IMG/VR virus record: IMGVR_UViG_3300027779_002770
Coordinates: 18,660-82,659 of that record
Length of the DNA: 64,000 nucleotides
Reading direction: 5' to 3' (one strand)
Source of the DNA: a virus
In this document: positions 8,858-26,270 of the stretch, piece by piece
How positions within the stretch are numbered: the stretch's first letter is position 1
How the letters are laid out: each line of letters opens with the position of its first letter
The notes under the pieces: generated by a model
Seen by the model: the letters and a program-made list of their open reading frames with translations, nothing else
What the model was told of the DNA's origin: nothing
The model's database searches: none
Made by a program: the position numbers and the translations under genes

Positions 8858-9292
8858 ATGTACGATTGCTATATTGCTAGTGGTTGGTTCAATGAGAATC
8901 AAGCACGAGACTTAGAAAACATAAAATCTACACTTGATGAAATGGGTGTTAAATATTTTTCACCAAAAGATGAAATCGTTGCCAAGCGTGATGCCACATT
9001 GGAAGAGCAAGAAATGATTTTTAAGGGAAATGTTGATGCTATCACAAGTGGAAAATTTGTTGTTTGTAATACACGTGATAAAGATCTGGGAACAATATTT
9101 GAGGCAGGATTTTCATATGCATCAGGTATTCCGCTAATCTATTATGCTGAAGGGCTACAAGGTAATTTCAATCTTATGCTTTCTCGTAGTGGAAGGGCTG
9201 TTGCAACAAATGTAGATGAATTAAAAGAACACGTAAAAGGAATAATGGAAAATCCAAAATATGAAAAAGAATACGTCGGTTTCGTTGAGTGA
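8858..9292 (+). CDS. nucleoside 2-deoxyribosyltransferase / dNMP N-glycosidase family protein
   Basis: YIASGWF, FSP, D.GTIFEAG.SYA, NLML motifs of the NDT fold. Confidence 0.8.
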   Translation: MYDCYIASGWFNENQARDLENIKSTLDEMGVKYFSPKDEIVAKRDATLEEQEMIFKGNVDAITSGKFVVCNTRDKDLGTIFEAGFSYASGIPLIYYAEGLQGNFNLMLSRSGRAVATNVDELKEHVKGIMENPKYEKEYVGFVE

Positions 9293-9794
9293 TTTTGTAG
9301 ATAATATCTATATTTTAAAAGCACTTACAAGATATAATAATAAATTTAAAATAATTAATGAATCAGTAGCAGAACATTCTTATTTTGTTGCTGTATTAAC
9401 ACTTAAAATGCATGATGATTATAATTTTGATCTAGAAGAGGCGCTCAAAATGGCACTAATTCATGACATTCCGGAATTACATTTATCAGATGTCACACAT
9501 GATGTAAAGCGTAATTTTCCAAAGCTTGCACAAGAAGTAACTAATGCTGAATATGTCATTATGAAGCAAAAATATCCGCAATGGTTCACAGAATTCAAAA
9601 AATTTGAAGATCAGGAGTCAGTTGAGGCATTAGTTGTAAAGATGGCAGATAATCTTAGTTGTGTGCAATATGCAACTGCAGAAATGTTGCTTGGCAATAA
9701 GGGTTATATGAAAGAAGTCGCTGAAAATGCCGCTAAAAGAGTTATGCAATGTGAAAGAAAATTAAAAAAATGGAGAAAAATAAATGCCAATTAA
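9261..9794 (+). CDS. HD-domain 5'-deoxynucleotidase / dNTPase (YfbR-like)
   Basis: R..ESVAEHSY, ALIHDIPE..SD, VKMAD; start codon uncertain. Confidence 0.85.
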   Translation: MKKNTSVSLSDFVDNIYILKALTRYNNKFKIINESVAEHSYFVAVLTLKMHDDYNFDLEEALKMALIHDIPELHLSDVTHDVKRNFPKLAQEVTNAEYVIMKQKYPQWFTEFKKFEDQESVEALVVKMADNLSCVQYATAEMLLGNKGYMKEVAENAAKRVMQCERKLKKWRKINAN

Positions 9795-10749
9795 CAATGA
9801 TTTACCAGTAGTTGAACTTCCAACTGGTCTGGGATTTAACGAACCAATAAAAACAGACTTCCATGATCATCTGGACTCTGTAAAAATAAAGCTAGTAAGC
9901 AGCCCTTCAATAGAAGAATTAAGAAACTATATACCTGACTTTTGTACTGCTACATGGGCAGAACAGCCTTTCAATAAAGCCGGACTGTCAAATTATGAAA
10001 AAGATAAAATGATTTGGATGTTATTTGATGGAAAGCTATTGCCAACAGCATTCGAAACAATAAACTGTACGTTTACCATAGAGGGTATTGACACTCAATT
10101 TGTAACACACTTAATCAGACATCGTACATTCAGCTTTTCAGCGCAATGTACAGGTGACAGATCACAAAGAAATGATAATGCTGTCATACCCCATGCAATC
10201 ATTAACACACCTGAGATGGCTGAACGCTATAAACAATTAGTCAATGACACAAAGCAGCTTTACGCTGACATGGTTGACACAAAGCAAATTTCTGTTATGG
10301 ATGCCAGGCATATTTTGCCAAAATGCCTAAGTACATTTTACTGGGCAAGAGGTAACATAAGAGATGTAATGGCTTTTATCAAGACCCGCATCGATAAACA
10401 AATCCAACCAACAGAAGATAATTTAGTTGCATACTACATGTGGTTAGAACTGGTAAGGCAATATCCAATGCTTATTGACTGTATCGACATCCACACGCCT
10501 GCAAGATATTATATTTCTACAGCAAGAACAGGTACAGGCACAAATCTTTACTGGCCAGATGAAGACTCTGATCTGTTTGACTATAATGAAGATGATTTTT
10601 TATATCAGTCTATACGTGAAGATCTTAACGGAACTAAAGACTCTGGTAGAAATACATTCATTGAAAAGCTAATAGAAGTAGATAAAGAATTAGAAGAAAT
10701 AAGACAAGTCGCATATGAAAGATATGATTTTTTAAAAGAAGGAAAATAG
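9784..10749 (+). CDS. thyX: divergent flavin-dependent thymidylate synthase homologue
   Basis: THLIRHRTFSFSAQC and DARHILP motifs; RHRX7S Ser replaced by Cys. Confidence 0.75.
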   Translation: MPINNDLPVVELPTGLGFNEPIKTDFHDHLDSVKIKLVSSPSIEELRNYIPDFCTATWAEQPFNKAGLSNYEKDKMIWMLFDGKLLPTAFETINCTFTIEGIDTQFVTHLIRHRTFSFSAQCTGDRSQRNDNAVIPHAIINTPEMAERYKQLVNDTKQLYADMVDTKQISVMDARHILPKCLSTFYWARGNIRDVMAFIKTRIDKQIQPTEDNLVAYYMWLELVRQYPMLIDCIDIHTPARYYISTARTGTGTNLYWPDEDSDLFDYNEDDFLYQSIREDLNGTKDSGRNTFIEKLIEVDKELEEIRQVAYERYDFLKEGK

Positions 10750-11102
10750 TGGAACGGCTAGAAGAAATATACGAACTACAGAAACATTTTACAGAAAGAT
10801 TCTTTAAAGAAAAACAAGGGTTAACATTAGATGAAGTAAGATCTGATAAAGAACAACTTGTAAAATGGAACAAAGAATACATACTCGCTTTAATAGCTGA
10901 GGCGACTGAGGTTTTAAACGAAGTTGATTGGAAGATGCATAAAAAAATGAATCTTCCAAATGATGCAAGAGAACGATTACTGGAAGAAAGTATTGATGTC
11001 ATGAAATTCTTATTGGGACTGATGATAGTCAATGGATTCAGCCTTGAAGACATCTATACTATGTTTGTAAAGAAATCAAAAATAGTTGAAAAAAGACTAT
11101 AA
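10749..11102 (+). CDS. all-alpha dimeric dUTPase/dCTPase (T4 gp56 / MazG-like superfamily)
   Basis: AEATEVLNEVDWKMHK and EESIDVMKF motifs; GTG start. Confidence 0.78.
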   Translation: MERLEEIYELQKHFTERFFKEKQGLTLDEVRSDKEQLVKWNKEYILALIAEATEVLNEVDWKMHKKMNLPNDARERLLEESIDVMKFLLGLMIVNGFSLEDIYTMFVKKSKIVEKRL

Positions 11103-11108
11103 AAAGCC

Positions 11109-11137
11109 TTTACACTTAAGCGAAAAAGGCTTAGATT
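11109..11137 (+). promoter_or_regulatory. sigma70-like phage promoter TTTACA-N17-TAGATT upstream of dnaE
   Basis: One of nine intergenic copies of CCTTT(AC/CA)W-N17-TA(G/T)ATT. Confidence 0.7.
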
Positions 11138-11162
11138 CTAATACAATAAAAAAGGTAATAAT

Positions 11163-14100
11163 TTGTCATTAAAAAATATAACACCACCAGATAGATTCAC
11201 CGGGTTACATTCACACACAACATTTAGTACATTCGATGCAATAGGCTACCCATCAGATCATATTGATTTTATTACAAGTGATCCGCAAGGCGGCGATTCA
11301 TGGGCAATTACTGATCATGGAAATGGTAACGGATTAGGCCACGCAAATGCGCATGCCAATATAGTTAAAAAGTCTGGTAGAAAATATCGTCAGTTATACG
11401 GTGTTGAATTTTATTTTATACCCTCAATAAAAACTTGGCAGCAACAATATGAAGCACATCGTGCAACTGTTCAAGCAGAAAGAGATGCTAAAAAACAAGA
11501 GAAGCTAGCAAATACACCAGTTATTATTGATGCTGAAAAAGAAGTAGAGGCAGGCGGCCATGTGTTAGAGGACGAATCTGAAACAAAGGGCTCTGCAAAA
11601 GGTAAACCGGCTTGGAAGAGGTATCATCATCTAGTTGTTGTTGCAAAAAATAGGCAAGGATTAGCTAATCTATTTACACTTGTTAAGAAGTCTTATAAAG
11701 ATGGATTCTATAGATTCCCTCGTATTGATTTTGAAATGCTTAAAGCACATGGTGATGGGCTAGTTGTATCAACAGCATGTGTTGGAGGCCTGGCATCGGG
11801 TATAATTTACAATGAGTTTCAAGATTTAACTTTTGATCAATTCCATCCTGATCTATTAAATAATTCATTGAAATACAATACAATCATGAAAAGATTAACA
11901 AATATGACTGATTATTTTGTTGATTGCGTTGGGCCAGAGAACTTCTTCCTAGAAATACAATTTAATAAATTAACAGCACAACAAATGACAAATCGTATGT
12001 TGCTTGATTTATCTAAAAATACAGGTATCAAATTAGTTGCAACTGCTGATTCACATTATCCATCACCTGATGTTTGGGAGGCAAGAGAACTTTATAAAAA
12101 ATTAGGTTGGTTTAGCAACGATCCTAAAAAGATGATACTCCCAAAAGAAGAAGAACTAAAGTGCTTATTATACCCTAAAAATGCACAACAGATGTGGTCT
12201 GAATTTACAGAAAATTATAATGAATATGATTTTTATAAAGGTCATGAAACTGAAGTTCGCGATGCGATAAATAGAACACATGATATTGCGTGGGATCTAT
12301 GTGAAGATACATGGATTGATCAATCAGCAAAGCTACCAATTCACGGAACAACAGAAAAACCTGCATTTAATATGCTTGTTGATTTAGCTAGAGAGGGCTT
12401 GATCCGTGAAGGCTTAGATAAAAAACAGGAATATATTGATCGTACAAAAAAAGAGTTAGCAGATATAAAGACACTTGGTCATGAATCATATTTTATAACA
12501 ATGTATCAGATCTTTGACAAGTCTTCCAAGCGGACATTATTGGGCCCCGGTCGTGGTTCAGGCGCAGGTAGTCTTGTAAACTTCTTATTAGGAATAACTC
12601 AGCTTGATCCACTTGAATATGGCTTATTATGGGAAAGATTTTTAGGACCGCATAAAGTATCCTGGCCAGATATTGATACTGATGCAGGTGATCGCGATGT
12701 CCTAATTGAGGTATCAAAAGAGCTGTATGGCGAAGAATCAGTTATTCCTGTATCAAATTTCAATACACTAAAATTAAAATCACTTCTTAAAGATGTATCA
12801 AAGTTTTATGGCGTACCATTTGCAGAAGTAAACAATCTTTCAAACGGACTCCAGGAAGAAGTCATGCCTTTTGCACGTGGTGATAATGAAGAAAAATCAA
12901 TGTTCATGCTTAAACATGAAGATTGTATGGAACATTCCAAACGTTACAAAGATTTTATGGAAAAATATCCTAATGTTGCAAGACAAATCAGTTCTTTATT
13001 TTTACAAAATAGAAGTATTGGACGACATGCAGGCGGTGTTATAATAGCACCTGAAAAAGATCTCACAAGCTGTATGCCTATTATATCAGTTAGAGGTGAA
13101 TTACAAACACCGTGGTCTGAAGGCATGAATGTTAGAAATTTAGAACCTAATGGATTCCTTAAATTTGATTTCTTAGGTTTAACATTGTTACGAGATGTAG
13201 AAAATTGTATTAGACGTATTCTTAAAAAACAAGGTAATTCTGATCCAACATTTTTAGAAGTAAAAGAGTTCTTTGATAAAAAATTAAATTGTCGAAATGC
13301 AAAGATGGATGACCCAAAAGTCTGGAAACATGTGTATGAAGATGGAAAGTTTACAGCAATCTTCCAGTTTACTGCAGATGGTGCAAGACGATTTTGTCTA
13401 GACGCAAAGCCAACCGACATTGAAACACTTGGAGCGATAACAGCAATCTACAGACCTGGTCCGCTTAAAGCTAATGTACATCAAAAATTTGTTAAAAATA
13501 AACGACAAGCAGCGATGATAGACTATGATCATCCTTTAATTGAAAAAATATTAGGACCAACATTCAATAATATTGTATTTCAAGAACAGTTCATGTTGCT
13601 AGCACAAGATCTTTCAGGCTTTACATTAGGTGAGGCAGATAAGCTTAGGAAGACATTAGTTAAGATGTCACATGATTCTCTTAGCGGTAAGAAAAATGAA
13701 AGACAATTTGCAAAAGAGAAGTTTATTTCTGGTGCTAAGAAGCTTAATGGCATTGATGAAAAAATTACAACTGATTTGTGGGAAAAAATTGAAGCATTTT
13801 CTACGTATGGATTTAATAAATCACATGCAATTGCTTACGCAATTGACTCTTACTATGGTGCATGGTTACACACATATTATGAAGTAGAATGGTTAGCAAC
13901 AATACTTGATTCTGAAAATAATAATCCCAAAGGCTTAACAAAAACAATTTCTGAAATAAAATCTTATGGCTACCAAATTATTGATGCTGATATAAACTAT
14001 TCTGGTATACAATGGGAATATTCAACTGAAATAGATGCATTTGTTCCTCCGCTATCTTCAATCAAAGGTGTAGGTGCTGCAGCAATGAATGAAGTTATGG

Positions 14101-14798
14101 GAGCTAGACCCTTTAGAAATATTAAAGAATTGTTATATGATTCTGAAGGTAGCTGGAGATGGTCAAAGTTTAATAAGTCTGCAATTAAATCACTGTGTAC
14201 TGTTGAGGCATTAGGCTCGATTGCGGAATTCAATAATGGAACTTTAAATAATCATAATCAATTACTCCACGTGCTAACAGATGATAAAAATTATGAAACA
14301 CTTAGAAAGCACATAAGCGGTTTAACAAAGACACAACGTCAGAAACTTGAAAAGCAAAATGAATACCCAACAGACTATATTGATGGATTATTTAGTAAAT
14401 ATGCAGATATTCCTGATTGGTCTAGAATGGAAAAGATCGAGAATTATGCTTCAATGACAGCAACAATAAAAAATGATCTTGTATTTCCGGAAGAAGTTAT
14501 GGACCAAATTGGCTTACATAATGTAATATGTGCTTTTGATATACCTGAAGGGACAAGGAAGCAAGGATGGTTTTCTGTTATTGAAAAGACTAAAAAGAAA
14601 TCAAAAAATAATAGAGTTTTCTGGAGTCTAAAGATAATCGATAATCAAAATAATACAGGCTGGTTACGTGTTTGGGGCGATTTTTACGAAGATAAAGAGC
14701 CAGGTAAATATACATTTTGTCTTGCTGATATTCACAATGATTCACAATGGGGAATGTCAACAAATGCAGCAAAATTTAAAATAATACCTTTACAATAA
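11163..14798 (+). CDS. dnaE: DNA polymerase III alpha subunit (family C)
   Basis: PHP domain (HSH..FS..D, ITDHG, ADSHY), GRGSGAGS, PDIDTD, HAGGV, KFDFLGL, YGFNKSHA; TTG start. Confidence 0.95.
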   Translation: MSLKNITPPDRFTGLHSHTTFSTFDAIGYPSDHIDFITSDPQGGDSWAITDHGNGNGLGHANAHANIVKKSGRKYRQLYGVEFYFIPSIKTWQQQYEAHRATVQAERDAKKQEKLANTPVIIDAEKEVEAGGHVLEDESETKGSAKGKPAWKRYHHLVVVAKNRQGLANLFTLVKKSYKDGFYRFPRIDFEMLKAHGDGLVVSTACVGGLASGIIYNEFQDLTFDQFHPDLLNNSLKYNTIMKRLTNMTDYFVDCVGPENFFLEIQFNKLTAQQMTNRMLLDLSKNTGIKLVATADSHYPSPDVWEARELYKKLGWFSNDPKKMILPKEEELKCLLYPKNAQQMWSEFTENYNEYDFYKGHETEVRDAINRTHDIAWDLCEDTWIDQSAKLPIHGTTEKPAFNMLVDLAREGLIREGLDKKQEYIDRTKKELADIKTLGHESYFITMYQIFDKSSKRTLLGPGRGSGAGSLVNFLLGITQLDPLEYGLLWERFLGPHKVSWPDIDTDAGDRDVLIEVSKELYGEESVIPVSNFNTLKLKSLLKDVSKFYGVPFAEVNNLSNGLQEEVMPFARGDNEEKSMFMLKHEDCMEHSKRYKDFMEKYPNVARQISSLFLQNRSIGRHAGGVIIAPEKDLTSCMPIISVRGELQTPWSEGMNVRNLEPNGFLKFDFLGLTLLRDVENCIRRILKKQGNSDPTFLEVKEFFDKKLNCRNAKMDDPKVWKHVYEDGKFTAIFQFTADGARRFCLDAKPTDIETLGAITAIYRPGPLKANVHQKFVKNKRQAAMIDYDHPLIEKILGPTFNNIVFQEQFMLLAQDLSGFTLGEADKLRKTLVKMSHDSLSGKKNERQFAKEKFISGAKKLNGIDEKITTDLWEKIEAFSTYGFNKSHAIAYAIDSYYGAWLHTYYEVEWLATILDSENNNPKGLTKTISEIKSYGYQIIDADINYSGIQWEYSTEIDAFVPPLSSIKGVGAAAMNEVMGARPFRNIKELLYDSEGSWRWSKFNKSAIKSLCTVEALGSIAEFNNGTLNNHNQLLHVLTDDKNYETLRKHISGLTKTQRQKLEKQNEYPTDYIDGLFSKYADIPDWSRMEKIENYASMTATIKNDLVFPEEVMDQIGLHNVICAFDIPEGTRKQGWFSVIEKTKKKSKNNRVFWSLKIIDNQNNTGWLRVWGDFYEDKEPGKYTFCLADIHNDSQWGMSTNAAKFKIIPLQ

Positions 14799-14817
14799 CA
14801 TGAAAAAGTATTAGATT
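14789..14817 (+). promoter_or_regulatory. sigma70-like promoter, probably giving a leaderless mRNA
   Basis: TTTACA-N17-TAGATT; ATG at 14823 only 5 nt after the -10 box; no SD. Confidence 0.6.
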
Positions 14818-14822
14818 CTATT

Positions 14823-15731: not shown

Positions 15732-16165
15732 TGCCAAATTATAACAAGTACTTTAAACAAATATTAAAAGAGACAGCTGCTATGTCAACATGTGCAAGGG
15801 TACAAGTTGGTTGTGTAATTGTAAGAGATGGAAGAATAATATCAACAGGATGGAACGGTGTACCTGCTGGACAAGAGCATTGTAAAGATGAGTATGTATT
15901 TGGTGGTTTGCCAATTGAATCACATCACACATGGTCAACAAAGCATGAAGTTCATGCTGAGACAAACGCAATAGGCTATGCTGCGAAAAATGGGGTAGCT
16001 ACACAAGGTGCAACAATTTACACGTCAGTCTCACCTTGTATTGACTGCGCAAAATTAATAATAGCAGCAGGTATAAAGTGTGTTTATTATATAGACGAGT
16101 ATGATAGAAGTAATACTGGAGAAGCATTTTTACGTAGAAATAAAATAGGTTGTACAAAATTATGA
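15731..16165 (+). CDS. dCMP deaminase
   Basis: STC.R.QVG, GWNG, HAETNAI, SPCIDC. Confidence 0.92.
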   Translation: MPNYNKYFKQILKETAAMSTCARVQVGCVIVRDGRIISTGWNGVPAGQEHCKDEYVFGGLPIESHHTWSTKHEVHAETNAIGYAAKNGVATQGATIYTSVSPCIDCAKLIIAAGIKCVYYIDEYDRSNTGEAFLRRNKIGCTKL

Positions 16166-16572
16166 AAAGAATAAATAGAAATCTTTACAAGATAGAAGAA
16201 GATGATAGAGACAGTGCTGAAAGCAAGAACTGGAACAACAGCATAAATACTTTTATAGGTAATCTTTCTGAGATAGCAGCATGCAGTTATTTGGGAATTG
16301 ACTGGTCAACAGCAGATAAAGCTACAGCTGATATTATCGATGATGATGGGCTAAGGTATCAAGTAAAAGGGACAAAAGAAGGGTTCAATAAAAAAAGATA
16401 CTGGCTAGAACAGGGTATAACTAAACAATTTGATAGGTACATATTTGTTGTAGTTGATGAAGAAGAAAAGTTTGCTAAAATAGAAATGGATGTAGTTAAG
16501 CAAATACCACACCAAAACGTGCATGAAGTCACATTAAGTGGTAAAAGGCTTCAAGCTATATTTAGAAAATAG
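16150..16572 (+). CDS. putative PD-(D/E)xK endonuclease
   Basis: G..SE, ADIID, YQVKG pattern; start may be ATG 16162. Confidence 0.45.
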   Translation: MYKIMKRINRNLYKIEEDDRDSAESKNWNNSINTFIGNLSEIAACSYLGIDWSTADKATADIIDDDGLRYQVKGTKEGFNKKRYWLEQGITKQFDRYIFVVVDEEEKFAKIEMDVVKQIPHQNVHEVTLSGKRLQAIFRK

Positions 16573-16580
16573 GAGTTGTA

Positions 16581-16997
16581 ATGAGTATCAGAGAGAGTGA
16601 TATGACAATAAAAAAGAGTTTAAAGAAGAATGCAAGAACGCAGGCTGGGAGACAGAAAAGTAATGCAGAATCAGTACTTAGACAAGCTTACCCTCAAATG
16701 ATCAATGAATTTAGACAAATTCAAGAAGAACAATTTGATTTATTTTGTAAAAAGCAGCATGATTACGGCCCAGGGAATATTTCAGTTGGAACACAATTAC
16801 AGACAGAAGAAGAAATAAAATTATCTCTTACAGGATTATGGTTCAGAATTAATGACAAATGCCAGAGACTAAAAACTTTGTTAATGAACAACCGAGAAAG
16901 TGCAGTTAAAGATGAACCATTAGAAGATACATTTCTTGACATTTCTAATTATGGAATTATGGCAACTATTGTCAGTAGAGGGAAGTGGGGTAAATAA
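16581..16997 (+). CDS. nucleotide modification associated domain 1 (DUF1599/Nmad1) protein
   Basis: KKQHDYG, FRINDKCQRL, EPLEDTFLDISNY. Confidence 0.8.
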   Translation: MSIRESDMTIKKSLKKNARTQAGRQKSNAESVLRQAYPQMINEFRQIQEEQFDLFCKKQHDYGPGNISVGTQLQTEEEIKLSLTGLWFRINDKCQRLKTLLMNNRESAVKDEPLEDTFLDISNYGIMATIVSRGKWGK

Positions 16998-17000
16998 CTA

Positions 17001-17864
17001 ATGGGAAGAATTAGCTGGTCGCAAGTCCAAACATATACACAGTGTCCTTATAAGTGGAAGTTAAATTATATTGATGGGCACAAAACATTCACAGATTCAA
17101 TATTTACAGTGTATGGTAAGGCACTTCACGATACACTACAAACATACTTAACAAAAATGTATTCTGTGTCTATTAAAGAAGCTGACGAAATAGATTTGTC
17201 AAATATGGTCGTTGACAGGCTTAAGTATCATTATGGTGAAGGTGTTAAAAATGCAAATGGAGTTCATTTTTCTACACAATCACAACTAACTGAGTTTTGT
17301 ATTCAAGGAGCAAAAGCACTTGATTGGTTTAAACGACATAGATCTGATTATTTTAACAAGAAAGACTGGGAATTATTGGGTGTTGAGACACCGATAGAGA
17401 CACATTATAAGACTGTAGACGTGCTGGGCTATATTGATGTATTAATGAGAAATACAAAGACAGGTCGAATTAAGGTTATTGATATCAAGACATCAACTAG
17501 AGGCTGGAAAAAAGAAAAGACAGACCAAATGAAGCGAGGCCAACTTTTATTTTATAAAAAATTCACAGCTGAAAAATATAATGTCGATATTTCAATGGTA
17601 GATGTAGAATTCATTATCGTAAAACGAATGGTGTGGGAAAATTCAGACTTTCCAGTAAAATATATTCAAAGATTTGAGCCACCGTCTGCAGGTGTATCAA
17701 TTAATAGAATTTTTGATAAAGTTGACCTATTTATTAGTGAATGTTTTAATAAAGATGGAAGTTACAAGGTAGAAACAAAGTATGAAAAACTTGGCGTACA
17801 AAATAAATGTAAGTGGTGTGAATTTGCGGACAAGCCAGCACTATGCGATAAGGGCAAATCATGA
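17001..17864 (+). CDS. PD-(D/E)xK (Cas4/RecB-like) exonuclease
   Basis: SWSQ...QCP, G.ALH, GYIDVL, IDIKT, QL.FY, CKWCEF..C. Confidence 0.85.
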   Translation: MGRISWSQVQTYTQCPYKWKLNYIDGHKTFTDSIFTVYGKALHDTLQTYLTKMYSVSIKEADEIDLSNMVVDRLKYHYGEGVKNANGVHFSTQSQLTEFCIQGAKALDWFKRHRSDYFNKKDWELLGVETPIETHYKTVDVLGYIDVLMRNTKTGRIKVIDIKTSTRGWKKEKTDQMKRGQLLFYKKFTAEKYNVDISMVDVEFIIVKRMVWENSDFPVKYIQRFEPPSAGVSINRIFDKVDLFISECFNKDGSYKVETKYEKLGVQNKCKWCEFADKPALCDKGKS

Positions 17865-18289
17865 TACCAACTGTTAGAATACCAGCAAATTTTATAATGT
17901 CTGAATATAGAGATCCAGTTTGGAAATATATTTCTAATACAATTGATGAAACTAAAGACTTTATACTGTGTATTTATTGTGACACTACACATGATATGGC
18001 AGAAGTTGCAAATTTTGTTGATAGCCATAGTGAAAAATTAAGAATAAAGACAACAATAAAGGTTTGGGATGTATGCAAACAAGAAAGAGTGTTCTTGGAT
18101 GTACCAAATGGCAACAAAACAGACGCTAGATTTGTTGTAGGACGACATAATGTTGATGGAATTATAGCAGCTATGGTTTTTTTAAGAAGTCATTTTGAAT
18201 TTCTTAGTCGCGAGAAAACAGGACATCCTGTTATAAAACATCAAAAAAGGAACGATTCAAAGAATTATGATGGTATATATAAAAAGTAA
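17861..18289 (+). CDS. hypothetical protein
   Basis: ATGA-coupled 142-aa ORF. Confidence 0.55.
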   Translation: MIPTVRIPANFIMSEYRDPVWKYISNTIDETKDFILCIYCDTTHDMAEVANFVDSHSEKLRIKTTIKVWDVCKQERVFLDVPNGNKTDARFVVGRHNVDGIIAAMVFLRSHFEFLSREKTGHPVIKHQKRNDSKNYDGIYKK

Positions 18290-18307
18290 TTTTTTATCTC
18301 ATTTCTT

Positions 18308-18341
18308 GATATATATTAAAAATAGATATATATTAAAAATA
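18308..18341 (+). repeat. perfect 17-bp tandem repeat GATATATATTAAAAATA x2 containing the ATATATATTA motif
   Basis: Copies at 18308-18324 and 18325-18341. Confidence 0.85.
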
Positions 18342-18350
18342 AAGGATGTT

Positions 18351-18566
18351 ATGATGATAAAACAAACACATGATTTTTGGAAATTGACATCGATTAAAGT
18401 GCTAGTAGAACTATACACGGACTTTCGAAAAAGCAGTAAATCAGAGAATATGACACTACAAAAACTAGTTAATAGATCAATGTATCTTTTTCTAAACGAT
18501 CCAGATTTTAAAAGTACTATAAAAGATGTTAATGAATTAAAAGAAAACTATAAAAAAGGTTATTAA
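18351..18566 (+). CDS. small putative DNA-binding (ribbon-helix-helix-like) protein
   Basis: LTSIKV..ELY..FR...TLQKLVNRSM pattern; start moved to ATG 18351 after AAAGGA SD. Confidence 0.5.
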   Translation: MMIKQTHDFWKLTSIKVLVELYTDFRKSSKSENMTLQKLVNRSMYLFLNDPDFKSTIKDVNELKENYKKGY

Positions 18567-20045
18567 ATGCTTAAGCTAGGTGACGTTCGTAATGGATACG
18601 AAGTTCTCCCGCATAACAAAAGAAAAACAGTCCTGCTATTAAGTGACGATTTAAGAATGACGTCAGGTGTCGGGAATATGTCAAGAGAATTTGTTATGGG
18701 AACTTTGCATCAAATTAATTGGATTCAAATTGGTGGTGCAATAAACCATCCAGACGCTGATAAGGCGATAGACATGAATGAAGATGTGCAAAAAAGAACT
18801 GGAATTGAAGACGCATATTTAAAAATACATCCAGTAAATGGTTATGGAAACCAAGAGATTGTTCGACAATGTCTAAATTTTTATAAACCTGATGCAATCA
18901 TGATCTATACAGATCCAAGATTCTGGGGATGGTTGTTCCAAATGGAAAATGAAATACGTCAAAATCTGCCTATTTTTTATTACAATATATGGGATGATCT
19001 TCCGTACCCGATGTGGAACCAAAAATATTATGATTCTGTAGATGCATTATTTAATATATCACGACAAAGTGTTAATATTGTAAAGCAAGTAAGATCATCA
19101 TACGAAGATTGGCAAGCAACATACATTCCGCATGGTATCAATGAAGATGATTTTTTTCCATTACCTAAGAAATATGAGAAACAAAAAGAATACGAAGAAT
19201 TTAAAAAAGATGCATTGCAACACAGTAAAAAAGATTTTGTACTTTTCTATAATGCTAGAAATATTAGAAGGAAATTACCAGCAGATATTGTTTATGCGTA
19301 TAGAACATTTTGTGATTCTATTCCAAAAGAAGATGCTGCTAGGTGTTTATTATTAATGCATTGTGCACCAGCAGATGAAAATGGAACTGATCTTCCTGAA
19401 GTTGTAGCAAATTTATGCCCTGATTATTCTGTTGGCTTCTCTTCCGGAAAGCTTGAAAGAGAACAAATGAATTGGTTATATAATTTATCAGATTGTTCGA
19501 TACTAATAAGTTCTAATGAAGGATTTGGCTTAATGGGTGCAGAATCATTAATTACTGGCACGCCATTAATTGTAAATGTTTCAGGCGGAATGCAAGATTA
19601 TTGTGGATTTAAAAAAGAAAACGGAGAGTATCTAACAGTTGATGATTACACTCTAGAGTGGGGATCAAATCATGATGGACGATATAAGGATCACGGTGAG
19701 TGGGTATTTCCTGTATATCCAATGTCGCGATCAATTCAGGGCTCAATACCAACTCCATATATTTCTGATGATAGACCTGATTGGCAAGATGTTGCAATAC
19801 AAATTAAAAAAGCATGGTCTATGAGAGGTAAGAAATTACAAGAAGCAGGTATGAAAGGAAGAGAATTTATTCTTGATCCGGAAATAGGAATGACATCATC
19901 AGAAATGTGTAGAAGGTTTGTACATGATATGCATCAAGTATGGGAAAACTGGAAACCAAGAGCAAGAATGACAATAGATAATGCTACATTATGGAATCCA
20001 AGAAAGATAAAATTTAACGGTCTAACATTAAACAAGGAGATATAA
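18567..20045 (+). CDS. GT-B (GT4-like) glycosyltransferase
   Basis: SGVG, YIPHG, RNIRRK, SNEGFGL..AES..GTP. Confidence 0.85.
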   Translation: MLKLGDVRNGYEVLPHNKRKTVLLLSDDLRMTSGVGNMSREFVMGTLHQINWIQIGGAINHPDADKAIDMNEDVQKRTGIEDAYLKIHPVNGYGNQEIVRQCLNFYKPDAIMIYTDPRFWGWLFQMENEIRQNLPIFYYNIWDDLPYPMWNQKYYDSVDALFNISRQSVNIVKQVRSSYEDWQATYIPHGINEDDFFPLPKKYEKQKEYEEFKKDALQHSKKDFVLFYNARNIRRKLPADIVYAYRTFCDSIPKEDAARCLLLMHCAPADENGTDLPEVVANLCPDYSVGFSSGKLEREQMNWLYNLSDCSILISSNEGFGLMGAESLITGTPLIVNVSGGMQDYCGFKKENGEYLTVDDYTLEWGSNHDGRYKDHGEWVFPVYPMSRSIQGSIPTPYISDDRPDWQDVAIQIKKAWSMRGKKLQEAGMKGREFILDPEIGMTSSEMCRRFVHDMHQVWENWKPRARMTIDNATLWNPRKIKFNGLTLNKEI

Positions 20046-21337
20046 TGGGAAAACCGAGTGTTTTAGTTACTGCACCTGTTGCAACAAGATCAGGATACGG
20101 GGCAAGATCAAGAGACGTTGTGCATGCATTATTAAAATTAGATAAGTATGACGTCAGTGTATTTCCTGTACCGTGGGGAACAACAGCACAAAATGCTCTA
20201 GTCATTGATAACCCTAGAGATAAAGCAATATTTGATTGTATAGTAACAAGTCAAGATGCGCTACCAAAGAATCCTGATGTTCATATACATATCGTTGTTC
20301 CAAATGAATTTATGCCAGTTGGAAAATATAATATTGGAATAACAGCCGGCCTCGAGGCAACAGCAATTCCGCAATCTTGGATCGAAGGTATTAATCGAAT
20401 GGACTTGACACTGGTAAGCTCAGTATTTAGCAAGGATGTTTGTCTGCTAACAGAGTACACTGACAAGGCTGTAAACAAAGTTATGAAAGTTGAAAAGCCA
20501 GTTGAGGTTTTATTTGAAGGAACAGATACTGATATATTTCATAAGAAAGCTTCAGGGTCAAGCTTCTCAAAGCCTATTGTTGATGTAATGAAACAAATTA
20601 AAGAGAACTGGTGCTTTTTATTTGTTGGCCATTGGCTTCAAGGACCAGAAGGACATGATAGAAAAGATGTTGCAAATCTTATTAGATCTTTTATGACAAC
20701 TTTTAGAAATAAAAAAGATACTGCGCTAATACTAAAGACATCTGGCGCAACAAATTGTGTATTAGATAGAGAAGAGTTATTACGAAAAATAAGAAATATA
20801 AAAATATCACTTGATCTCCCTGAGAGCGCGCTACCAAGTGTTTATCTATTACATGCAGATTTATATGATGATGAAGTGAATGATTTGTACAACCATCCAA
20901 AGGTAAAAGCTCATATTACATTTACACACGGAGAAGGATTTGGAAGGCCATTGCTAGAAGCAAGTCTGTCAGCTAAGCCAATTCTTGCTACAGGGTGGTC
21001 CGGACACACAGATTTTCTTAATAAAACCAATACAGTTTTATTGCCAGGCAGCATGATAGATGTTCATCCTGCTTCACTTCCAGAGAATATTTTTGTCAAA
21101 GGACAACAATGGTTTTGTGTTAATTATCCTGAGGCAGCAAGACAAATGCTAAGTGTTCGAAAAAATCATAAGGTATTTAAAGCAAAGGCTGCAAAACAAG
21201 CAATGTGGAACAAATCAAAATTTAGTTTTGATAGTATGACGAAGAGGTTAGGCAGTATATTAAATGATAATCTTCCAAAATTTACAGAAACAGTTATACC
21301 AAAGATTAACTTACCAAAATTAGAAAAAACATCATGA
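20045..21337 (+). CDS. GT-B (GT4-like) glycosyltransferase
   Basis: SGYG, FLFVG, DRK, GEGFGRPLLEA, WSGHTDF. Confidence 0.85.
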   Translation: MGKPSVLVTAPVATRSGYGARSRDVVHALLKLDKYDVSVFPVPWGTTAQNALVIDNPRDKAIFDCIVTSQDALPKNPDVHIHIVVPNEFMPVGKYNIGITAGLEATAIPQSWIEGINRMDLTLVSSVFSKDVCLLTEYTDKAVNKVMKVEKPVEVLFEGTDTDIFHKKASGSSFSKPIVDVMKQIKENWCFLFVGHWLQGPEGHDRKDVANLIRSFMTTFRNKKDTALILKTSGATNCVLDREELLRKIRNIKISLDLPESALPSVYLLHADLYDDEVNDLYNHPKVKAHITFTHGEGFGRPLLEASLSAKPILATGWSGHTDFLNKTNTVLLPGSMIDVHPASLPENIFVKGQQWFCVNYPEAARQMLSVRKNHKVFKAKAAKQAMWNKSKFSFDSMTKRLGSILNDNLPKFTETVIPKINLPKLEKTS

Positions 21338-21546: not shown

Positions 21547-21652
21547 ATATGATGTTAGCTATAATACCAAGCTTTATGCAAAATTGGGAAATGATCTACT
21601 TTTGTATGTTTTGCTTATTAATGATGGATTTTACAGATTGGATAGATAGAAA

Positions 21653-24955: not shown

Positions 24956-24964
24956 GGAGTTATA

Positions 24965-26209: not shown

Positions 26210-26214
26210 AAGCC

Positions 26215-26243: not shown

Positions 26244-26270
26244 CTAATACAATAATCAAAGGAATACAGA

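What the first reader, a model, noticed from the sequence alone, without database searches (positions are those of the whole stretch)
8858..21337. Gene set for a non-canonical DNA base, probably a modified cytosine, built around DnaE
Seen: contiguous NDT-fold N-glycosidase, HD dNMPase, altered ThyX, all-alpha dNTP pyrophosphatase, DnaE, dNMP kinase fused to a TS-fold domain with the dCMP-type Asp, dCMP deaminase, Nmad1/DUF1599, nucleases and two GT-B enzymes. Known: T4 replaces C with glucosyl-hmC using a TS-fold hydroxymethylase, a dNMP kinase, an all-alpha dCTPase and GT-B transferases; HD enzymes purge canonical dNTPs in Z-genome phages; NDT-fold enzymes (MilB, DNPH1) act on hydroxymethyl-pyrimidine nucleotides. 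Inference: two non-standard pyrimidine-C5 enzymes plus three pool-purging hydrolases beside a family C polymerase suggest an uncharacterised base-substitution pathway.
Basis: partly seen in the sequence, partly recalled or inferred. Interest (0 to 1): 0.8.

Follow-up and report, generated by a model that had tools for sequence, protein, structure and literature searches.

The report
Phage pyrimidine-modifying gene module beside DnaE
An uncultured marine phage carries, next to its DnaE polymerase, a conserved and uncharacterised enzyme set that most likely makes a modified deoxycytidine nucleotide for its DNA, but no DNA chemistry has been measured and the two sugar-transferase genes in the finding belong to a separate cassette.

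Summary
The region splits into two independent units.

**Module A (8858-16165):** NDT-fold enzyme, HD phosphohydrolase, a divergent ThyX paralogue (Cys replaces the signature Ser, "ThyX-C"), an all-alpha dNTP pyrophosphatase, DnaE, a dNMP kinase fused to a ~150-aa minimal thymidylate-synthase fold ("KinTS"), and dCMP deaminase.
- In 81 of 81 viral loci (80 related contigs plus this window), KinTS lies directly after DnaE.
- The catalytic Cys and the cytosine-type Asp (E. coli ThyA N177 position) are invariant.
- ThyX-C was found in 46 and NDT in 47 of 49 KinTS-bearing records. About 22 of these also carry a canonical ThyX.
- A split form (kinase, NDT, HD, ThyX-C, mini-TS) recurs beside PolB in another contig and beside DnaE in the cultured Geobacillus phage GR1.
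- Sister phages carry PolB plus a stand-alone T4-like dCMP-type TS homologue at the same place.

**Module B (16581-23212 and onward):** Nmad1, PD-(D/E)XK nuclease, two GT-B transferases and GT2. It is conserved in 62 loci, only 4 of which have DnaE/KinTS nearby. It also occurs in Flavobacterium phage immuto, whose virion dC and dT are canonical.

Best reading: pre-replicative synthesis of a C5-modified dCTP. The chemistry is unresolved because the folate-binding parts of the TS fold are missing. Other first-stage notes of this scan on this genome had already flagged KinTS and the Cys-ThyX separately.

The parts
8858..9292 (+). Module A: NDT-fold protein (nucleoside 2-deoxyribosyltransferase / dNMP N-glycosidase superfamily), 144 aa
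   Evidence: PF05014 E 7e-14. The best solved relative is the 142-aa N-deoxyribosyltransferase 6evs, and the catalytic-Glu motif is aligned (GTIFEAG). NDT is present in 47 of 49 KinTS-bearing viral records, usually next to ThyX-C. Orthologues at 46% and 39% identity occur in L147 and phage GR1.
9261..9794 (+). Module A: HD phosphohydrolase, YfbR/HDDC2-like 5'-deoxynucleotidase family, 177 aa
   Evidence: PF12917 E 8e-17. The best PHROG is 7076, 'dATP triphosphohydrolase'. Solved relatives are 2cqz, 1xx7, HDDC2 and YfbR. It is seen only in the window and 4 close relatives, but also in L147 (42% identity) and GR1 (39%).
9784..10749 (+). Module A: ThyX-C, a divergent flavin-dependent thymidylate-synthase paralogue, 321 aa. 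Cys replaces Ser88, TGDR replaces GRY, Q75 becomes H, H53 becomes T, and there are N- and C-terminal extensions.
   Evidence: PF02511 E 5e-20. Alignment to T. maritima ThyX. The motif VTHxIRHRxxxFxAQCTGDR is conserved in 32 family members. The long form (319-359 aa) is present in 46 of 49 KinTS records, and about 22 of these also have a canonical ThyX of 216-275 aa. The GR1 orthologue is 47% identical with the same motif.
10749..11102 (+). Module A: all-alpha NTP pyrophosphatase (dimeric-dUTPase/MazG-like), 117 aa. Candidate dUTPase and/or dCTPase.
   Evidence: PF08761 E 2e-9; PHROG 173. Only a weak match to dimeric dUTPases in the PDB. Found in 25 of 81 loci within 10 kb. A 'dUTP diphosphatase' follows DnaE in GR1.
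11163..14798 (+). Module A: DnaE-type family C DNA polymerase, 1211 aa
   Evidence: PHP, DNA_pol3_alpha, finger and HHH_6 domains. It lies directly upstream of KinTS in 81 of 81 loci. The closest cultured-phage DnaE is under 32% identical.
14823..15731 (+). Module A: KinTS, a dNMP (TMPK-like) kinase (residues 1-~145) fused to a minimal TS-fold domain (residues ~150-302). The TS-fold domain has catalytic Cys233, Arg224/225, Arg253-Ser254, Asp256 (= ThyA D169), Asp264 (= ThyA N177, cytosine type) and His300.
   Evidence: AF2 pLDDT 92, pTM 0.88. Domain-only model pLDDT 94. VIA-align gives Z 10.9 to MilA, 10.9 to ThyA and 10.7 to AfhB (9iqu), with 134-141 of 159 residues aligned. Foldseek's top hit is AfhB. 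The N-domain matches YorR/TMPK at Z 13. hmmsearch hits T4 dCMP hydroxymethylase at E 0.005. Residue invariance across 81 members. 381 representative clusters found among 1.84 billion proteins.
15731..16165 (+). Module A: dCMP deaminase, 144 aa. Its start codon overlaps the KinTS stop.
   Evidence: PF00383 E 1e-24. Present downstream of KinTS in 69 of 81 loci.
16150..16572 (+). Unassigned 140-aa protein between the two modules (possible restriction-endonuclease-like fold; weak)
   Evidence: DUF6998 E 3.5e-4, below the cut-off. The atlas places it in viral hypothetical clusters; the nearest named one is Bsp6I REase at 0.91, which is a lead only.
16581..16997 (+). Module B head: Nmad1/DUF1599 protein, 138 aa
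   Evidence: PF07659 E 3e-7. It sits next to the PD-(D/E)XK nuclease in 57 of 62 GTa-bearing loci, irrespective of polymerase type.
17001..17864 (+). Module B: PD-(D/E)XK (Cas4/RecB-like) nuclease, 287 aa
   Evidence: PF12705 E 2e-17. Present in 62 of 62 GTa loci. 36% identical to the phage immuto orthologue in the same position.
17861..18566 (+). Module B: two small unknown proteins, p142 (17861-18289) and p99 (18267-18566)
   Evidence: No Pfam hit. p99 is present in 62 of 62 GTa loci and p142 in 10 of 62. The atlas lead for p142 (PAPS-reductase-like, 0.90) is too weak to use.
18567..21337 (+). Module B: two GT4-like GT-B glycosyltransferases, GTa (492 aa) and GTb (430 aa). They open a glycan island that continues to about 35.6 kb.
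   Evidence: PHROG 2170 E 9e-19 and 2e-15; weak GT4/Glycos_transf_1 Pfam hits. 45% and 40% identical and syntenic with Flavobacterium phage immuto gp181 and gp180. Downstream lie GT2, GT29-like, epimerase, DegT, cytidylyltransferase, PIG-L, WbqC and sulfotransferase-GT2 genes.

Best explanation
Module A (8858-16165) is a pre-replicative pathway that supplies the phage's own DnaE polymerase with a C5-modified deoxycytidine nucleotide.

**Shown**
- The KinTS C-domain is a minimal thymidylate-synthase fold. It keeps the nucleophilic Cys, the phosphate-binding Arg residues and an invariant Asp at the position that selects cytosine over uracil.
- It is fused to a TMPK-like dNMP kinase.
- It always lies next to DnaE and travels with a ThyX paralogue (ThyX-C) and an NDT-fold enzyme.

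**Inferred**
1. dCTP/dCDP are returned to dCMP by the all-alpha pyrophosphatase.
2. The mini-TS domain attacks C6 of dCMP and installs a C5 substituent.
3. The fused kinase immediately converts the product to the diphosphate. This channels it away from the phage dCMP deaminase.
4. Host NDK makes the triphosphate, and DnaE incorporates it.
5. dCMP deaminase and a ThyX supply dTTP for this AT-rich genome.
6. The NDT-fold enzyme and the HD nucleotidase remove unwanted mononucleotides, either canonical dCMP or a deaminated by-product (DNPH1/DmtZ-like), or swap bases.

**Nature of the substituent**
- By published residue rules (N177D, an acidic residue at L143, D169 retained), the window's enzyme looks hydroxymethylase-like.
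- Relatives with Asn at the D169 position look hydroxylase-like.
- The domain lacks the folate-binding helices and the C-terminal tail, so the cofactor and product are open.
- ThyX-C, a flavoenzyme with a new Cys at the pyrimidine C6 site, may take part in the chemistry or supply the one-carbon unit or reduced flavin.

The GT-B pair, the PD-(D/E)XK nuclease and Nmad1 (module B) are a separate glycan/recombination cassette and are not required for this pathway.
For: 1. **Fold and residues.** AF2 models have pLDDT 92 and 94. The TS-family matches reach Z 10-11 and cover 134-141 of 159 residues. The profile hits T4 dCMP hydroxymethylase and RB69 gp48. In 81 family members, K17, D36-R37, R224, C233, R253-S254, D264 (ThyA N177 position) and H300 are invariant. 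The L143 position is never hydrophobic.
2. **Published rules and precedent.** Rules for N177D, L143D/E and D169N, and the finding that a TS homologue plus its cognate dNMP kinase suffices to put 5hodC into E. coli DNA, come from PMC13326640.
3. **Linkage.** DnaE is directly upstream in 81 of 81 loci, and dCD is present in 69. ThyX-C occurs in 46 of 49 records and NDT in 47 of 49. The records lacking them are truncated near KinTS.
4. **Rosetta-stone split forms.** L147 carries TMPK-like kinase, NDT, HD, ThyX-C and a stand-alone mini-TS followed by PolB-UDG. Cultured Geobacillus phage GR1 carries NDT, HD, a P-loop kinase (hhalign 95.5%), ThyX-C (47% identity), a mini-TS (hhalign 96.4%), DnaE and a dUTPase.
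5. **ThyX-C is a paralogue.** It coexists with a canonical ThyX (S-x-R-Y motif intact) in about 22 of 49 records, including the one 100%-complete 284-kb genome.
6. **Analogous replacement in sister phages.** Sister phages (GTa 67-70% identical) have, at the same place, PolB plus a stand-alone TS homologue with Cys, D169 and N177D (DIPC...RSNDVVYGFCND), an HAD phosphatase and a trimeric dUTPase/DCD. Every role is filled by a non-orthologous analogue.
7. **Lineage background.** The immuto-related lineage is known to swap PolA, PolB and PolC (PMC11188092). The window's genome has the lineage's divergent PolA.
8. **NDT precedent.** The NDT-family enzyme DmtZ purges dAMP and makes dZMP in Z-genome phages (PMC12884076).
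Against: - No measurement of DNA composition exists for this phage, its relatives or GR1.
- The mini-TS lacks the segment that holds E58, W80 and W83 in ThyA, and the C-terminal ~55 residues. It may therefore be unable to bind folate, and no alternative cofactor site is demonstrated.
- Pfam's TS model does not hit it.
- The D169 position varies (D 32, N 36, E 13). Either the residue rule does not transfer to this family, or the family is chemically heterogeneous.
- All the gene families involved also serve ordinary nucleotide supply.
- CATG and GATC are mildly under-represented in the genome (z -6.9 and -3.9). This would be unexpected if all cytosines were protectively modified.
- GR1 encodes an integrase, and 3 of 49 related records are flagged as proviruses. 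That sits awkwardly with complete base replacement.
- 81 of 81 synteny could partly reflect shared ancestry rather than functional coupling.
Confidence: 0.5

Rival explanations
1. This is an ordinary nucleotide-supply and salvage module with no base replacement. On this reading:
- ThyX-C is simply a divergent dTMP synthase.
- KinTS is a dTMP/dCMP kinase whose TS-like domain is a nucleotide-binding or regulatory remnant.
- NDT, with the thymidine kinase seen in relatives, salvages deoxynucleosides.
- HD and the all-alpha pyrophosphatase are a house-cleaning nucleotidase and dUTPase.
- dCMP deaminase raises dTTP for an AT-rich (34% GC) genome.
For: - All families are standard nucleotide-metabolism families.
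- Relatives add thymidine kinase (67 loci), GMP reductase, a DHH phosphoesterase and RNR in the same neighbourhood.
- The closest solved NDT relative is a true deoxyribosyltransferase.
- The window's 82.6-kb fragment has no other thymidylate synthase or trimeric dUTPase, so ThyX-C and the MazG-like enzyme may be the only ones.
- The TS-like domain lacks the folate-binding parts.
- Mild GATC and CATG avoidance is present.
Against: - A vestigial domain would not keep Cys, the Arg-Arg pair, Arg-Ser, Asp and His invariant across 81 members at ~30% identity, nor in stand-alone forms.
- The Asp at the N177 position is the cytosine-type residue, not the uracil/thymine one.
- About 22 of 49 related records carry a canonical ThyX in addition to ThyX-C, so ThyX-C is not needed for dTMP there.
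- The same five-gene set recurs in three unrelated phage backgrounds.
- Sister phages place a T4-like dCMP-type TS homologue at the same locus.
Confidence: 0.22
2. The modified base ends up on the thymine side. There are two possible routes. Either the KinTS product (5-X-dCMP) is deaminated by the adjacent dCMP deaminase to 5-X-dUMP. Or ThyX-C releases 5-hydroxymethyl-dUMP instead of reducing the exocyclic methylene. The genome then carries a 5-substituted uracil in place of T.
For: - dCMP deaminase is translationally coupled to KinTS in the window (coordinates) and is present in 69 of 81 loci.
- ThyX chemistry passes through an exocyclic methylene that water can trap (PMC8989533, plus established ThyX mechanism).
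- ThyX-C keeps the uracil-binding Arg residues (R147 and R174 equivalents).
- In L147 the neighbouring PolB carries a UDG domain. In family A polymerases this feature is associated with T-modified genomes.
Against: - There is no 5-hmU DNA kinase, aGPT-Pplase or other known T-hypermodification enzyme in the window.
- Fusing the kinase to the TS domain favours immediate phosphorylation of the dCMP-derived product rather than its deamination.
- A canonical ThyX coexists in many relatives, which implies that dTMP is still made.
Confidence: 0.12
3. This is a MilA/MilB-like route to a free modified pyrimidine base. The TS-fold domain modifies (d)CMP. The NDT-fold enzyme then cleaves the glycosidic bond to release a 5-substituted cytosine, or transfers deoxyribose 5-phosphate onto a pre-made base as DmtZ does. 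The module's real product would then be a free base or a base-swapped nucleotide.
For: - The TS-like (Asp) plus NDT-fold pairing is the MilA/MilB logic. MilA is the joint top structural match, at Z 10.9.
- NDT co-occurs with KinTS in 47 of 49 records.
- DmtZ shows that NDT-family enzymes in phages can hydrolyse a canonical dNMP and build the non-canonical one.
Against: - The fused dNMP kinase argues that the nucleotide is kept and pushed towards the triphosphate.
- NDT is adjacent to ThyX-C rather than to KinTS.
- The closest solved NDT relative is a nucleoside transferase, not MilB or DNPH1.
Confidence: 0.08

Closest known systems
T4-type hydroxymethylcytosine pathway (gp42 dCMP hydroxymethylase, gp1 dNMP kinase, gp56 dCTPase/dUTPase, cd dCMP deaminase, gp43 polymerase)
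   Same: - The cast of roles is the same: a TS-fold enzyme with Cys and the cytosine-type Asp, a dNMP kinase, a dNTP pyrophosphatase, a dCMP deaminase and a phage polymerase.
- The core motif RSSDVVNIFEHDY resembles T4's RSNDVVFGFRNDY.
- The profile search hits PDB 1b49.
   Different: - The TS fold is cut down to ~150 aa. It lacks the folate-binding helices and the C-terminal tail.
- It is fused to the kinase.
- The polymerase is family C, not family B.
- dTMP comes from ThyX-type enzymes.
- An NDT-fold enzyme and a ThyX paralogue are obligatory companions.
- No T4-like alpha- or beta-glucosyltransferase is present.
RB69/DLP3/HY126 5-hydroxy-dCMP synthases (gp48, gp80, AfhB; flavin-dependent TS homologues) with their cognate dNMP kinase (PMC13326640)
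   Same: - AfhB (9iqu, 9iqc) is Foldseek's top structural match and ties for best by Z.
- Both end in the S-A-H motif, and both have N177D and an acidic or polar residue at L143.
- In both systems a TMPK-like gene lies in the cluster.
- 36 of 81 KinTS relatives have the diagnostic D169N.
   Different: - The window's enzyme keeps Asp at the D169 position.
- The domain is ~80 residues shorter than gp48 (238 aa).
- Flavin binding is untested.
- No arabinose or UDP-sugar genes and no DNA glycosyltransferases are demonstrably tied to it.
Canonical flavin-dependent thymidylate synthase ThyX (T. maritima TM0449, PF02511)
   Same: - The Pfam match is well above the cut-off.
- The RHR motif and the R147- and R174-equivalent Arg residues are kept.
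   Different: - Ser88 becomes Cys, G-R-Y becomes T-G-D-R, Q75 becomes H and H53 becomes T.
- There are extensions of about 65 aa (N-terminal) and about 90 aa (C-terminal).
- It forms its own conserved family, which coexists with canonical ThyX in the same genomes.
Z-genome phages: PurZ, DatZ (HD), MazZ, DmtZ (NDT family) and DpoZ
   Same: - The logic is the same: a dedicated polymerase surrounded by an HD hydrolase, an all-alpha pyrophosphatase and an NDT-family enzyme that purge or convert canonical nucleotides.
- The HD protein's best PHROG is the DatZ-type family.
   Different: - No PurZ was found in the 82.6-kb record.
- The base-specific enzyme here is a pyrimidine-C5 (TS-fold) enzyme.
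- The polymerase is DnaE rather than PolA.
MilA/MilB (CMP hydroxymethylase plus NDT-fold hmCMP N-glycosidase of mildiomycin biosynthesis)
   Same: - A TS-fold enzyme with Asp is paired with an NDT-fold enzyme.
- MilA ties for the best structural match.
   Different: - MilA is a full-length (~320 aa) folate enzyme acting on ribonucleotides in a secondary-metabolite cluster.
- Here the context is phage DNA replication, with a fused dNMP kinase.
[quoted passage not shown]
   Same: - Module B is syntenic with it: PD-(D/E)XK 36%, p99 38%, GTa 45%, GTb 40%, p148 28%, GT2 44% and sulfotransferase-GT2 56% identity.
- Both genomes have the divergent PolA of this lineage.
   Different: - Immuto uses PolA, lacks KinTS and replaces dG with fdPreQ1, while its dC and dT are canonical.
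- The cassette is therefore not a cytosine- or thymine-glycosylating system there.

Membership tests
Thymidylate synthase / dCMP hydroxymethylase superfamily (TS fold) | TS alpha/beta fold | tested here: met
   The domain-only AF2 model (pLDDT 94) aligns to MilA, ThyA and AfhB at Z 10.7-10.9, rmsd ~3 A, over 134-141 of 159 residues. 395 chains score Z >= 8.
Thymidylate synthase / dCMP hydroxymethylase superfamily (TS fold) | Catalytic Cys (ThyA C146), Arg126/127, Arg166-Ser167, His207 | tested here: met
   C233, R224/R225, R253-S254 and H300 are invariant, or 80 of 81 for R225, across the family. They align with T4 dCH and RB69 gp48.
Thymidylate synthase / dCMP hydroxymethylase superfamily (TS fold) | Folate-binding elements (the E58/W80/W83 helices and the C-terminal tail), and a match to Pfam PF00303 | tested here: not met
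   The alignment with full-length TS homologues shows that the segment holding ITEWLWYL...KIWD is deleted. The protein ends right after SAHIT. There is no PF00303 hit.
T4-type dCMP hydroxymethylase | Asp at ThyA N177, an acidic residue at L143, and Asp retained at D169 | tested here: met
   The window protein has D264, D230 and D256 at these positions. D264 is invariant in 81 of 81. The D169 position is D in only 32 of 81. The residue rules come from PMC13326640.
T4-type dCMP hydroxymethylase | Methylene-tetrahydrofolate-dependent formation of 5hm-dCMP | not testable with these tools
   This needs an enzyme assay. The absence of the folate-binding segments makes it doubtful.
Flavin-dependent 5-hydroxy-dCMP synthase (RB69 gp48 / AfhB) | Diagnostic D169N substitution | tested here: not met
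   The window protein has Asp256. Asn occurs in 36 of 81 relatives, and in the GR1 mini-TS (RSSN).
Flavin-dependent 5-hydroxy-dCMP synthase (RB69 gp48 / AfhB) | Bound flavin and O2-dependent hydroxylation | not testable with these tools
   Only structural similarity is available (9iqu and 9iqc are top Foldseek hits).
ThyX (flavin-dependent thymidylate synthase, PF02511) | Pfam model above the gathering score, and the RHR motif | tested here: met
   72.5 bits against a cut-off of 24.8. IRHR is present.
ThyX (flavin-dependent thymidylate synthase, PF02511) | Signature RHRx7S with the following x-R-Y (Ser88, Arg90, Tyr91 of T. maritima) | tested here: not met
   The sequence is RHRTFSFSAQ-C-TGDR, and this is conserved in 32 family members. 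Canonical paralogues in the same phage group keep S-R-R-Y.
dNMP/thymidylate kinase | P-loop, D-R motif and the TMPK fold | tested here: met
   GADLAGKTT and IIDRS are present, and K17, D36 and R37 are invariant. Z 13.0 to YorR and ~12 to S. aureus TMK. Pfam TMPK scores below its cut-off.
NDT superfamily (PF05014) | Pfam match and the catalytic Glu | tested here: met
   52.4 bits against a cut-off of 28.8. The FEAG Glu aligns with the WELG Glu of 6evs. Whether it is a transferase, hydrolase or phosphodeoxyribosyltransferase cannot be told.
DNA base glycosyltransferases acting on hmC/hoC (T4 a-gt/b-gt, RB69 or DLP3 arabinosyltransferases) | Co-occurrence with, and dependence on, a hydroxylated pyrimidine in DNA | tested here: not met
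   The GTa-GTb cassette occurs in 62 loci, only 4 of which have KinTS. It also occurs in phage immuto, whose dC and dT are canonical.
Z-genome (2-aminoadenine) system | PurZ (adenylosuccinate-synthetase homologue) | tested here: not met
   No PF00709 match in the 82.6-kb record. The record is only ~41% complete.

The most novel reading that the evidence does not exclude
The conserved quartet of mini-TS, dNMP kinase, ThyX-C and NDT may be a new biosynthetic system for a pyrimidine not yet described in DNA.

On this reading, a ThyX paralogue with a new active-site Cys works with a folate-site-less TS fold. It would act as a flavin-dependent, Cys-nucleophile enzyme, or as the one-carbon or reduced-flavin donor.

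The polymerase and its base-modification toolkit would also move en bloc between related phages. Three alternatives are seen in one lineage: DnaE with KinTS, PolB with a stand-alone dCMP-type TS, and PolA with 7-deazaguanine. Polymerase swaps in this lineage would then really be swaps of whole DNA chemistries.
Probability: 0.3. Interest if true: 0.9.

Novelty: new variant of a known kind. Interest (0 to 1): 0.78.

Why it matters
- **Diversity of phage DNA chemistry.** Modified bases in phage DNA defeat restriction and CRISPR defences and are a source of enzymes for biotechnology. This module is widespread: more than 120 viral contigs, 381 protein clusters at 50% identity, and seawater metagenomes from at least 12 studies. 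No cultured phage in the collection searched carries the fused form.
- **Unusual enzymes.** The module contains two enzymes without a characterised counterpart. One is a TS fold stripped of its folate site and fused to a kinase. The other is a ThyX paralogue with a Cys at the C6 site.
- **Polymerase swapping.** The module is strictly linked to a family C polymerase, in a lineage known for polymerase swapping. This suggests a testable rule: polymerases travel with the nucleotide chemistry they must accept.
- **Testable now.** The cultured Geobacillus phage GR1 carries the split form, so the question can be addressed at the bench immediately.

Tried and rejected
- **No close cultured relative.** Megablast of the whole region against 50,697 phage records found nothing. 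tblastn of KinTS against cultured phages found only a 47-residue P-loop match.
- **Z-genome reading rejected.** No PurZ was found, although the record is incomplete. No ThyA and no trimeric dUTPase are in the record either.
- **GT-B pair as T4-like DNA glucosyltransferases rejected.** Cassette distribution and the published immuto DNA composition argue against it.
- **Palindrome statistics uninformative.** On the 82.6-kb record, mean z was -1.0 for 4-mers and +0.15 for 6-mers. Only CATG and GATC are mildly low.
- **Sequencing runs cannot show modification.** The phage is held in marine or seawater metagenomes from 12 studies, but only as assembled contigs.
- **No paper on AfhB/HY126 found.** Only the citation in PMC13326640 turned up. 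No paper describes a kinase-TS fusion or a Cys-ThyX paralogue.
- **Protein atlas leads too weak.** p140 points to Bsp6I-like at 0.91 and p142 to PAPS-reductase-like at 0.90.
- **Profile too variable.** The search for related loci with the alignment of stand-alone mini-TS proteins failed for lack of a conserved stretch. The single protein P0176 was used instead.

Full report
**What the window is**

The window is bases 18660-82659 of an 82.6-kb IMG/VR virus record, estimated to be about 41% complete. All genes run on the + strand and GC is about 34%.

Upstream in the record lie a tail sheath, a T4-type baseplate protein and a 434-aa divergent family A polymerase. That polymerase's only relatives in cultured phages are in the Flavobacterium phage immuto group and Microcystis phage Mel-JY01. 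A preprint describes this "divPolA1" group as 155-190-kb phages whose regular polymerase can be family A, B or C (PMC11188092).

The stretch from DnaE to dCMP deaminase is held by marine and seawater metagenomes from 12 studies. The phage is therefore a marine myovirus of the immuto-related lineage, and the one here uses DnaE.

**Checking the observation**

- NDT-fold (PF05014), HD (YfbR-like), ThyX (PF02511) and all-alpha dUTPase_2/MazG-like.
- DnaE with PHP, NTPase, finger and HHH domains.
- A 302-aa protein with weak kinase hits, dCMP deaminase, a DUF1599/Nmad1 protein and a PD-(D/E)XK nuclease.
- Two GT4-like glycosyltransferases.

The ThyX reads RHRTFSFSAQCTGDR where T. maritima ThyX reads RHRIASYNELSGRY. 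Its best PDB hit is, tellingly, the S88C mutant.

The 302-aa protein was modelled with a 23-sequence alignment (pLDDT 92, pTM 0.88).
- Residues 1-150 form a TMPK/YorR-like kinase (Z 13.0, rmsd 2.9 A, 140 residues aligned).
- The C-terminal ~150 residues, modelled alone (pLDDT 94), match only the thymidylate-synthase family. MilA scores Z 10.9, ThyA 10.9 and the phage HY126 dCMP hydroxylase AfhB 10.7. These are tied, with 134-141 of 159 residues aligned.
- Profile searches also reach T4 dCMP hydroxymethylase (E 0.005) and RB69 gp48 (hhalign E 5e-4).

**Anatomy of the fused protein (KinTS)**

Mapped to E. coli ThyA numbering, the domain keeps C146 (C233), R126/R127 (R224/R225), R166-S167 (R253-S254), D169 (D256) and H207 (H300). 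It has Asp (D264) at N177, the position that switches the enzyme from uracil to cytosine. D230 sits at L143.

Across 81 family members (29-76% identical), K17, D36-R37, R224, C233, R253-S254, D264 and H300 are invariant. The L143 position is never hydrophobic. The D169 position is D in 32, N in 36 and E in 13.

A 2026 paper gives the residue rules (PMC13326640):
- N177D marks dCMP use.
- L143D/E marks a product other than methyl.
- D169N marks the flavin- and O2-dependent 5-hydroxy-dCMP synthases.
- A TS homologue plus its cognate dNMP kinase is enough to put the new base into E. coli DNA.

By those rules the window's enzyme looks hydroxymethylase-like, and about half of its relatives look hydroxylase-like.

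However, alignment with full-length TS homologues shows two losses. The mini domain has lost the segment carrying E58, W80 and W83, and it has lost everything after H207. These are the parts that bind folate. The rules may therefore not transfer, and the cofactor is open.

**The module is real and conserved**

KinTS relatives are found in at least 122 viral contigs. I analysed 80 of them with 10-kb flanks, plus the window.
- DnaE lies directly upstream in 81 of 81.
- Within 10 kb, dCMP deaminase is present in 69, thymidine kinase in 67, an NDP-sugar epimerase/dehydratase in 64, NDT in 40, the long ThyX in 32 and the all-alpha pyrophosphatase in 25.

Searching 49 whole records raised these figures.
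- ThyX matches occur in 47 of 49, with the long ThyX-C form in 46.
- NDT occurs in 47 of 49, mostly adjacent to ThyX-C.
- G006 and G008 lack both genes; in both, KinTS sits near a contig end. G043 has only a canonical-type ThyX.

About 22 of the 49 records carry a second, canonical ThyX of 216-275 aa with the S-x-R-Y motif. This includes the one complete 284-kb genome. ThyX-C is therefore a paralogue with its own conserved motif, VTHxIRHRxxxFxAQCTGDR, and not just the phage's thymidylate synthase.

In a library of 1.84 billion representative proteins, the mini-TS profile finds 381 proteins. Most are ~300-aa fusions, and some are ~170-aa stand-alone forms. No cultured phage in the collection searched has the fusion.

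**Split forms in unrelated phages**

Two unrelated genomes carry the same five-gene set, with the kinase and mini-TS as separate genes.
- **Contig L147** (GC 28%) encodes, in order: a TMPK-like kinase, NDT (46% identical), HD (42%), ThyX-C (38%, motif AQCSGD) and a stand-alone 166-aa mini-TS. A PolB with an N-terminal UDG domain follows.
- **Cultured Geobacillus phage GR1** (79 kb) encodes: NDT (39%), HD (39%), a glycosyltransferase unrelated to GTa/GTb, a 145-aa P-loop protein matching the KinTS kinase domain (hhalign 95.5%), RNase H, an NAD(P)H nitroreductase/flavin-reductase-like protein and ThyX-C (47%, identical AQCTGDR motif). Immediately after come a 151-aa protein matching the mini-TS (hhalign 96.4%; Cys kept, RSSN), then DnaE and a dUTP diphosphatase.

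The recurrence of this set in three different phage backgrounds is the strongest evidence that the genes work together. The GR1 paper reports nothing on DNA chemistry.

**The GT-B pair belongs elsewhere**

GTa homologues define 62 viral loci.
- PD-(D/E)XK and p99 are present in 62 of 62, Nmad1 in 57, GTb in 58, p148 in 52 and GT2 in 48.
- DnaE and KinTS are present in only 4.

[quoted passage not shown] That phage uses PolA and has no mini-TS. LC-UV-MS of its virion DNA showed canonical dA, dC and dT, with dG replaced by fdPreQ1 (PMC10516641).

In the window the cassette opens a glycan island of at least 13 kb, holding GT2, GT29-like, epimerase, DegT, cytidylyltransferase, PIG-L, WbqC and sulfotransferase-GT2 genes. 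The cassette is independent of KinTS, and in the one phage whose DNA has been analysed it does not glycosylate C or T. I put at most about 0.2 on these enzymes acting on DNA here.

**Sister phages swap polymerase and chemistry together**

Close relatives (GTa 67-70% identical) have a different gene set upstream of the same dCD/Nmad1/PD-(D/E)XK/GT block.
- **L087** has a stand-alone 290-aa TS homologue with DIPC...RSNDVVYGFCND (Cys, L143D, D169, N177D). This is the T4 hydroxymethylase signature. It also has an HAD phosphatase, a trimeric dUTPase/DCD and PolB.
- **L091** has a 252-aa dCMP-type TS homologue with an APH-like kinase, an ADI-like protein, a glutamine-synthetase-like protein, a dUTPase and PolB.

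Each role in module A (C5 enzyme with Asp, dNMP phosphatase, dNTP pyrophosphatase, polymerase) is thus filled by a non-orthologous analogue in the sister phages. Immuto itself pairs PolA with a 7-deazaguanine pathway.

This pattern suggests that polymerase and base-modification genes are exchanged as a unit. Only the right-hand boundary of the swap (dCD/Nmad1) could be seen with the DNA available.

**Mechanism proposed**

*Shown:* the folds, the conserved residues and the gene linkage.

*Inferred:*
1. dCMP, replenished from dCTP by the all-alpha pyrophosphatase, is attacked at C6 by Cys233.
2. A C5 substituent is installed.
3. The fused kinase makes the diphosphate at once. This would shield the product from the co-encoded dCMP deaminase.
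4. DnaE incorporates the triphosphate.

The NDT-fold and HD enzymes would clear unwanted mononucleotides. The NDT enzyme might be a DNPH1-like remover of a deaminated by-product, or a DmtZ-like hydrolase/phosphodeoxyribosyltransferase (PMC12884076).

ThyX-C may be a second C5 enzyme. Alternatively it may supply the one-carbon unit or reduced flavin that the folate-site-less mini-TS cannot obtain itself. The adjacent flavin-reductase-like gene in GR1 fits a flavin-based chemistry, but this is speculation.

**Cautions**
- No DNA composition data exist for any carrier of the module.
- All the families involved also serve ordinary nucleotide supply.
- GATC and CATG are mildly under-represented.
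- GR1 has an integrase, and 3 of 49 related records are flagged as proviruses.
- 81 of 81 synteny partly reflects common descent.

I therefore give the modified-cytosine pathway 0.5, plain nucleotide supply 0.22, a thymine-side product 0.12 and a free-base/base-swap route 0.08.

**Novelty and verdict**

The logic (TS-fold enzyme, kinase, pool-purging enzymes, dedicated polymerase) is the known T4/RB69/Z-phage logic. This makes the finding a new variant of a known kind.

Four things appear undescribed in the literature I could search:
- the kinase-fused, folate-site-less TS fold;
- the Cys-ThyX paralogue;
- the obligate NDT partner;
- the strict tie to DnaE.

The finding is worth following up, and phage GR1 offers an immediate experimental handle.

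Noticed in passing
L091:40-7555 (IMGVR_UViG_3300025133_000036), a close relative of the window's phage: In place of DnaE-KinTS this relative has an ADI-like protein, a divergent dCMP-type TS homologue (252 aa; Cys, RSTD, Asp at the N177 position), an APH/protein-kinase-like phosphotransferase, a trimeric dUTPase/DCD, PolB, dCMP deaminase, Nmad1 and a glutamine-synthetase-like protein. This looks like a different, also uncharacterised, pyrimidine hypermodification cluster.
   Followed up: partly
L148 (Geobacillus phage GR1, OK896991.1 23909-34837): A cultured phage carries the split form of the module. An NAD(P)H nitroreductase/flavin-reductase-like gene sits directly upstream of ThyX-C, and a 459-aa glycosyltransferase unrelated to GTa/GTb lies between HD and the kinase.
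   Followed up: partly
L147:7748-10636: A family B DNA polymerase with an N-terminal uracil-DNA-glycosylase-superfamily domain lies directly after the stand-alone mini-TS. So far, UDG-polymerase fusions have been described for family A polymerases of phages with T-modified genomes (PMC13697223).
   Followed up: no
window 21653-35592: A large glycan island follows the GT-B pair. It holds GT2, a GT29 (sialyltransferase-like) protein, an NAD epimerase/dehydratase, a DegT aminotransferase, a GT1-like protein, a cupin, an SDR, a CMP-sugar cytidylyltransferase, a PIG-L deacetylase, an FtsJ-like methyltransferase, WbqC and a sulfotransferase-GT2 fusion. It is partly syntenic with phage immuto.
   Followed up: partly
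L146:15225-16529 (record G000 upstream of the window): A 434-aa divergent, truncated family A polymerase (PF00476 below cut-off, E 3e-6). Its only cultured relatives are in the immuto phages and Microcystis phage Mel-JY01. It coexists with the DnaE in the window.
   Followed up: partly
L146:723-1289: A 2OG-Fe(II) oxygenase-superfamily protein (188 aa) lies near the tail genes. It was not examined for a nucleic-acid role.
   Followed up: no
Relatives L006-L081, directly downstream of KinTS (e.g. L028:10906-11922): In 64 of 81 loci an NDP-sugar 4,6-dehydratase/epimerase gene immediately follows KinTS, inside the nucleotide-metabolism block. The window's homologue sits instead in the glycan island (23981-24955). 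Whether this links a sugar to the modified base is unknown.
   Followed up: partly
Relatives, about 5-6 kb downstream of KinTS (e.g. L064:14044-14745, L033:20490-20882, L020:11907-12959): Conserved companions in the wider group include a protein with an Fe/Mn superoxide-dismutase C-terminal domain (56 loci), a pterin-4a-carbinolamine dehydratase (24 loci) and a GMP reductase/IMPDH (18 loci).
   Followed up: no
window 82-2389: A NUDIX hydrolase (82-489), a weak methyltransferase-like protein (905-1456) and a second NAD-dependent sugar epimerase/dehydratase (1487-2389) precede the gp32/RecA/exonuclease/DnaB/class II RNR replication block.
   Followed up: no
window 38488-38561 and 54038-54109: Two tRNA genes: tRNA-Ala (TGC) and tRNA-Gly (TCC).
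   Followed up: no
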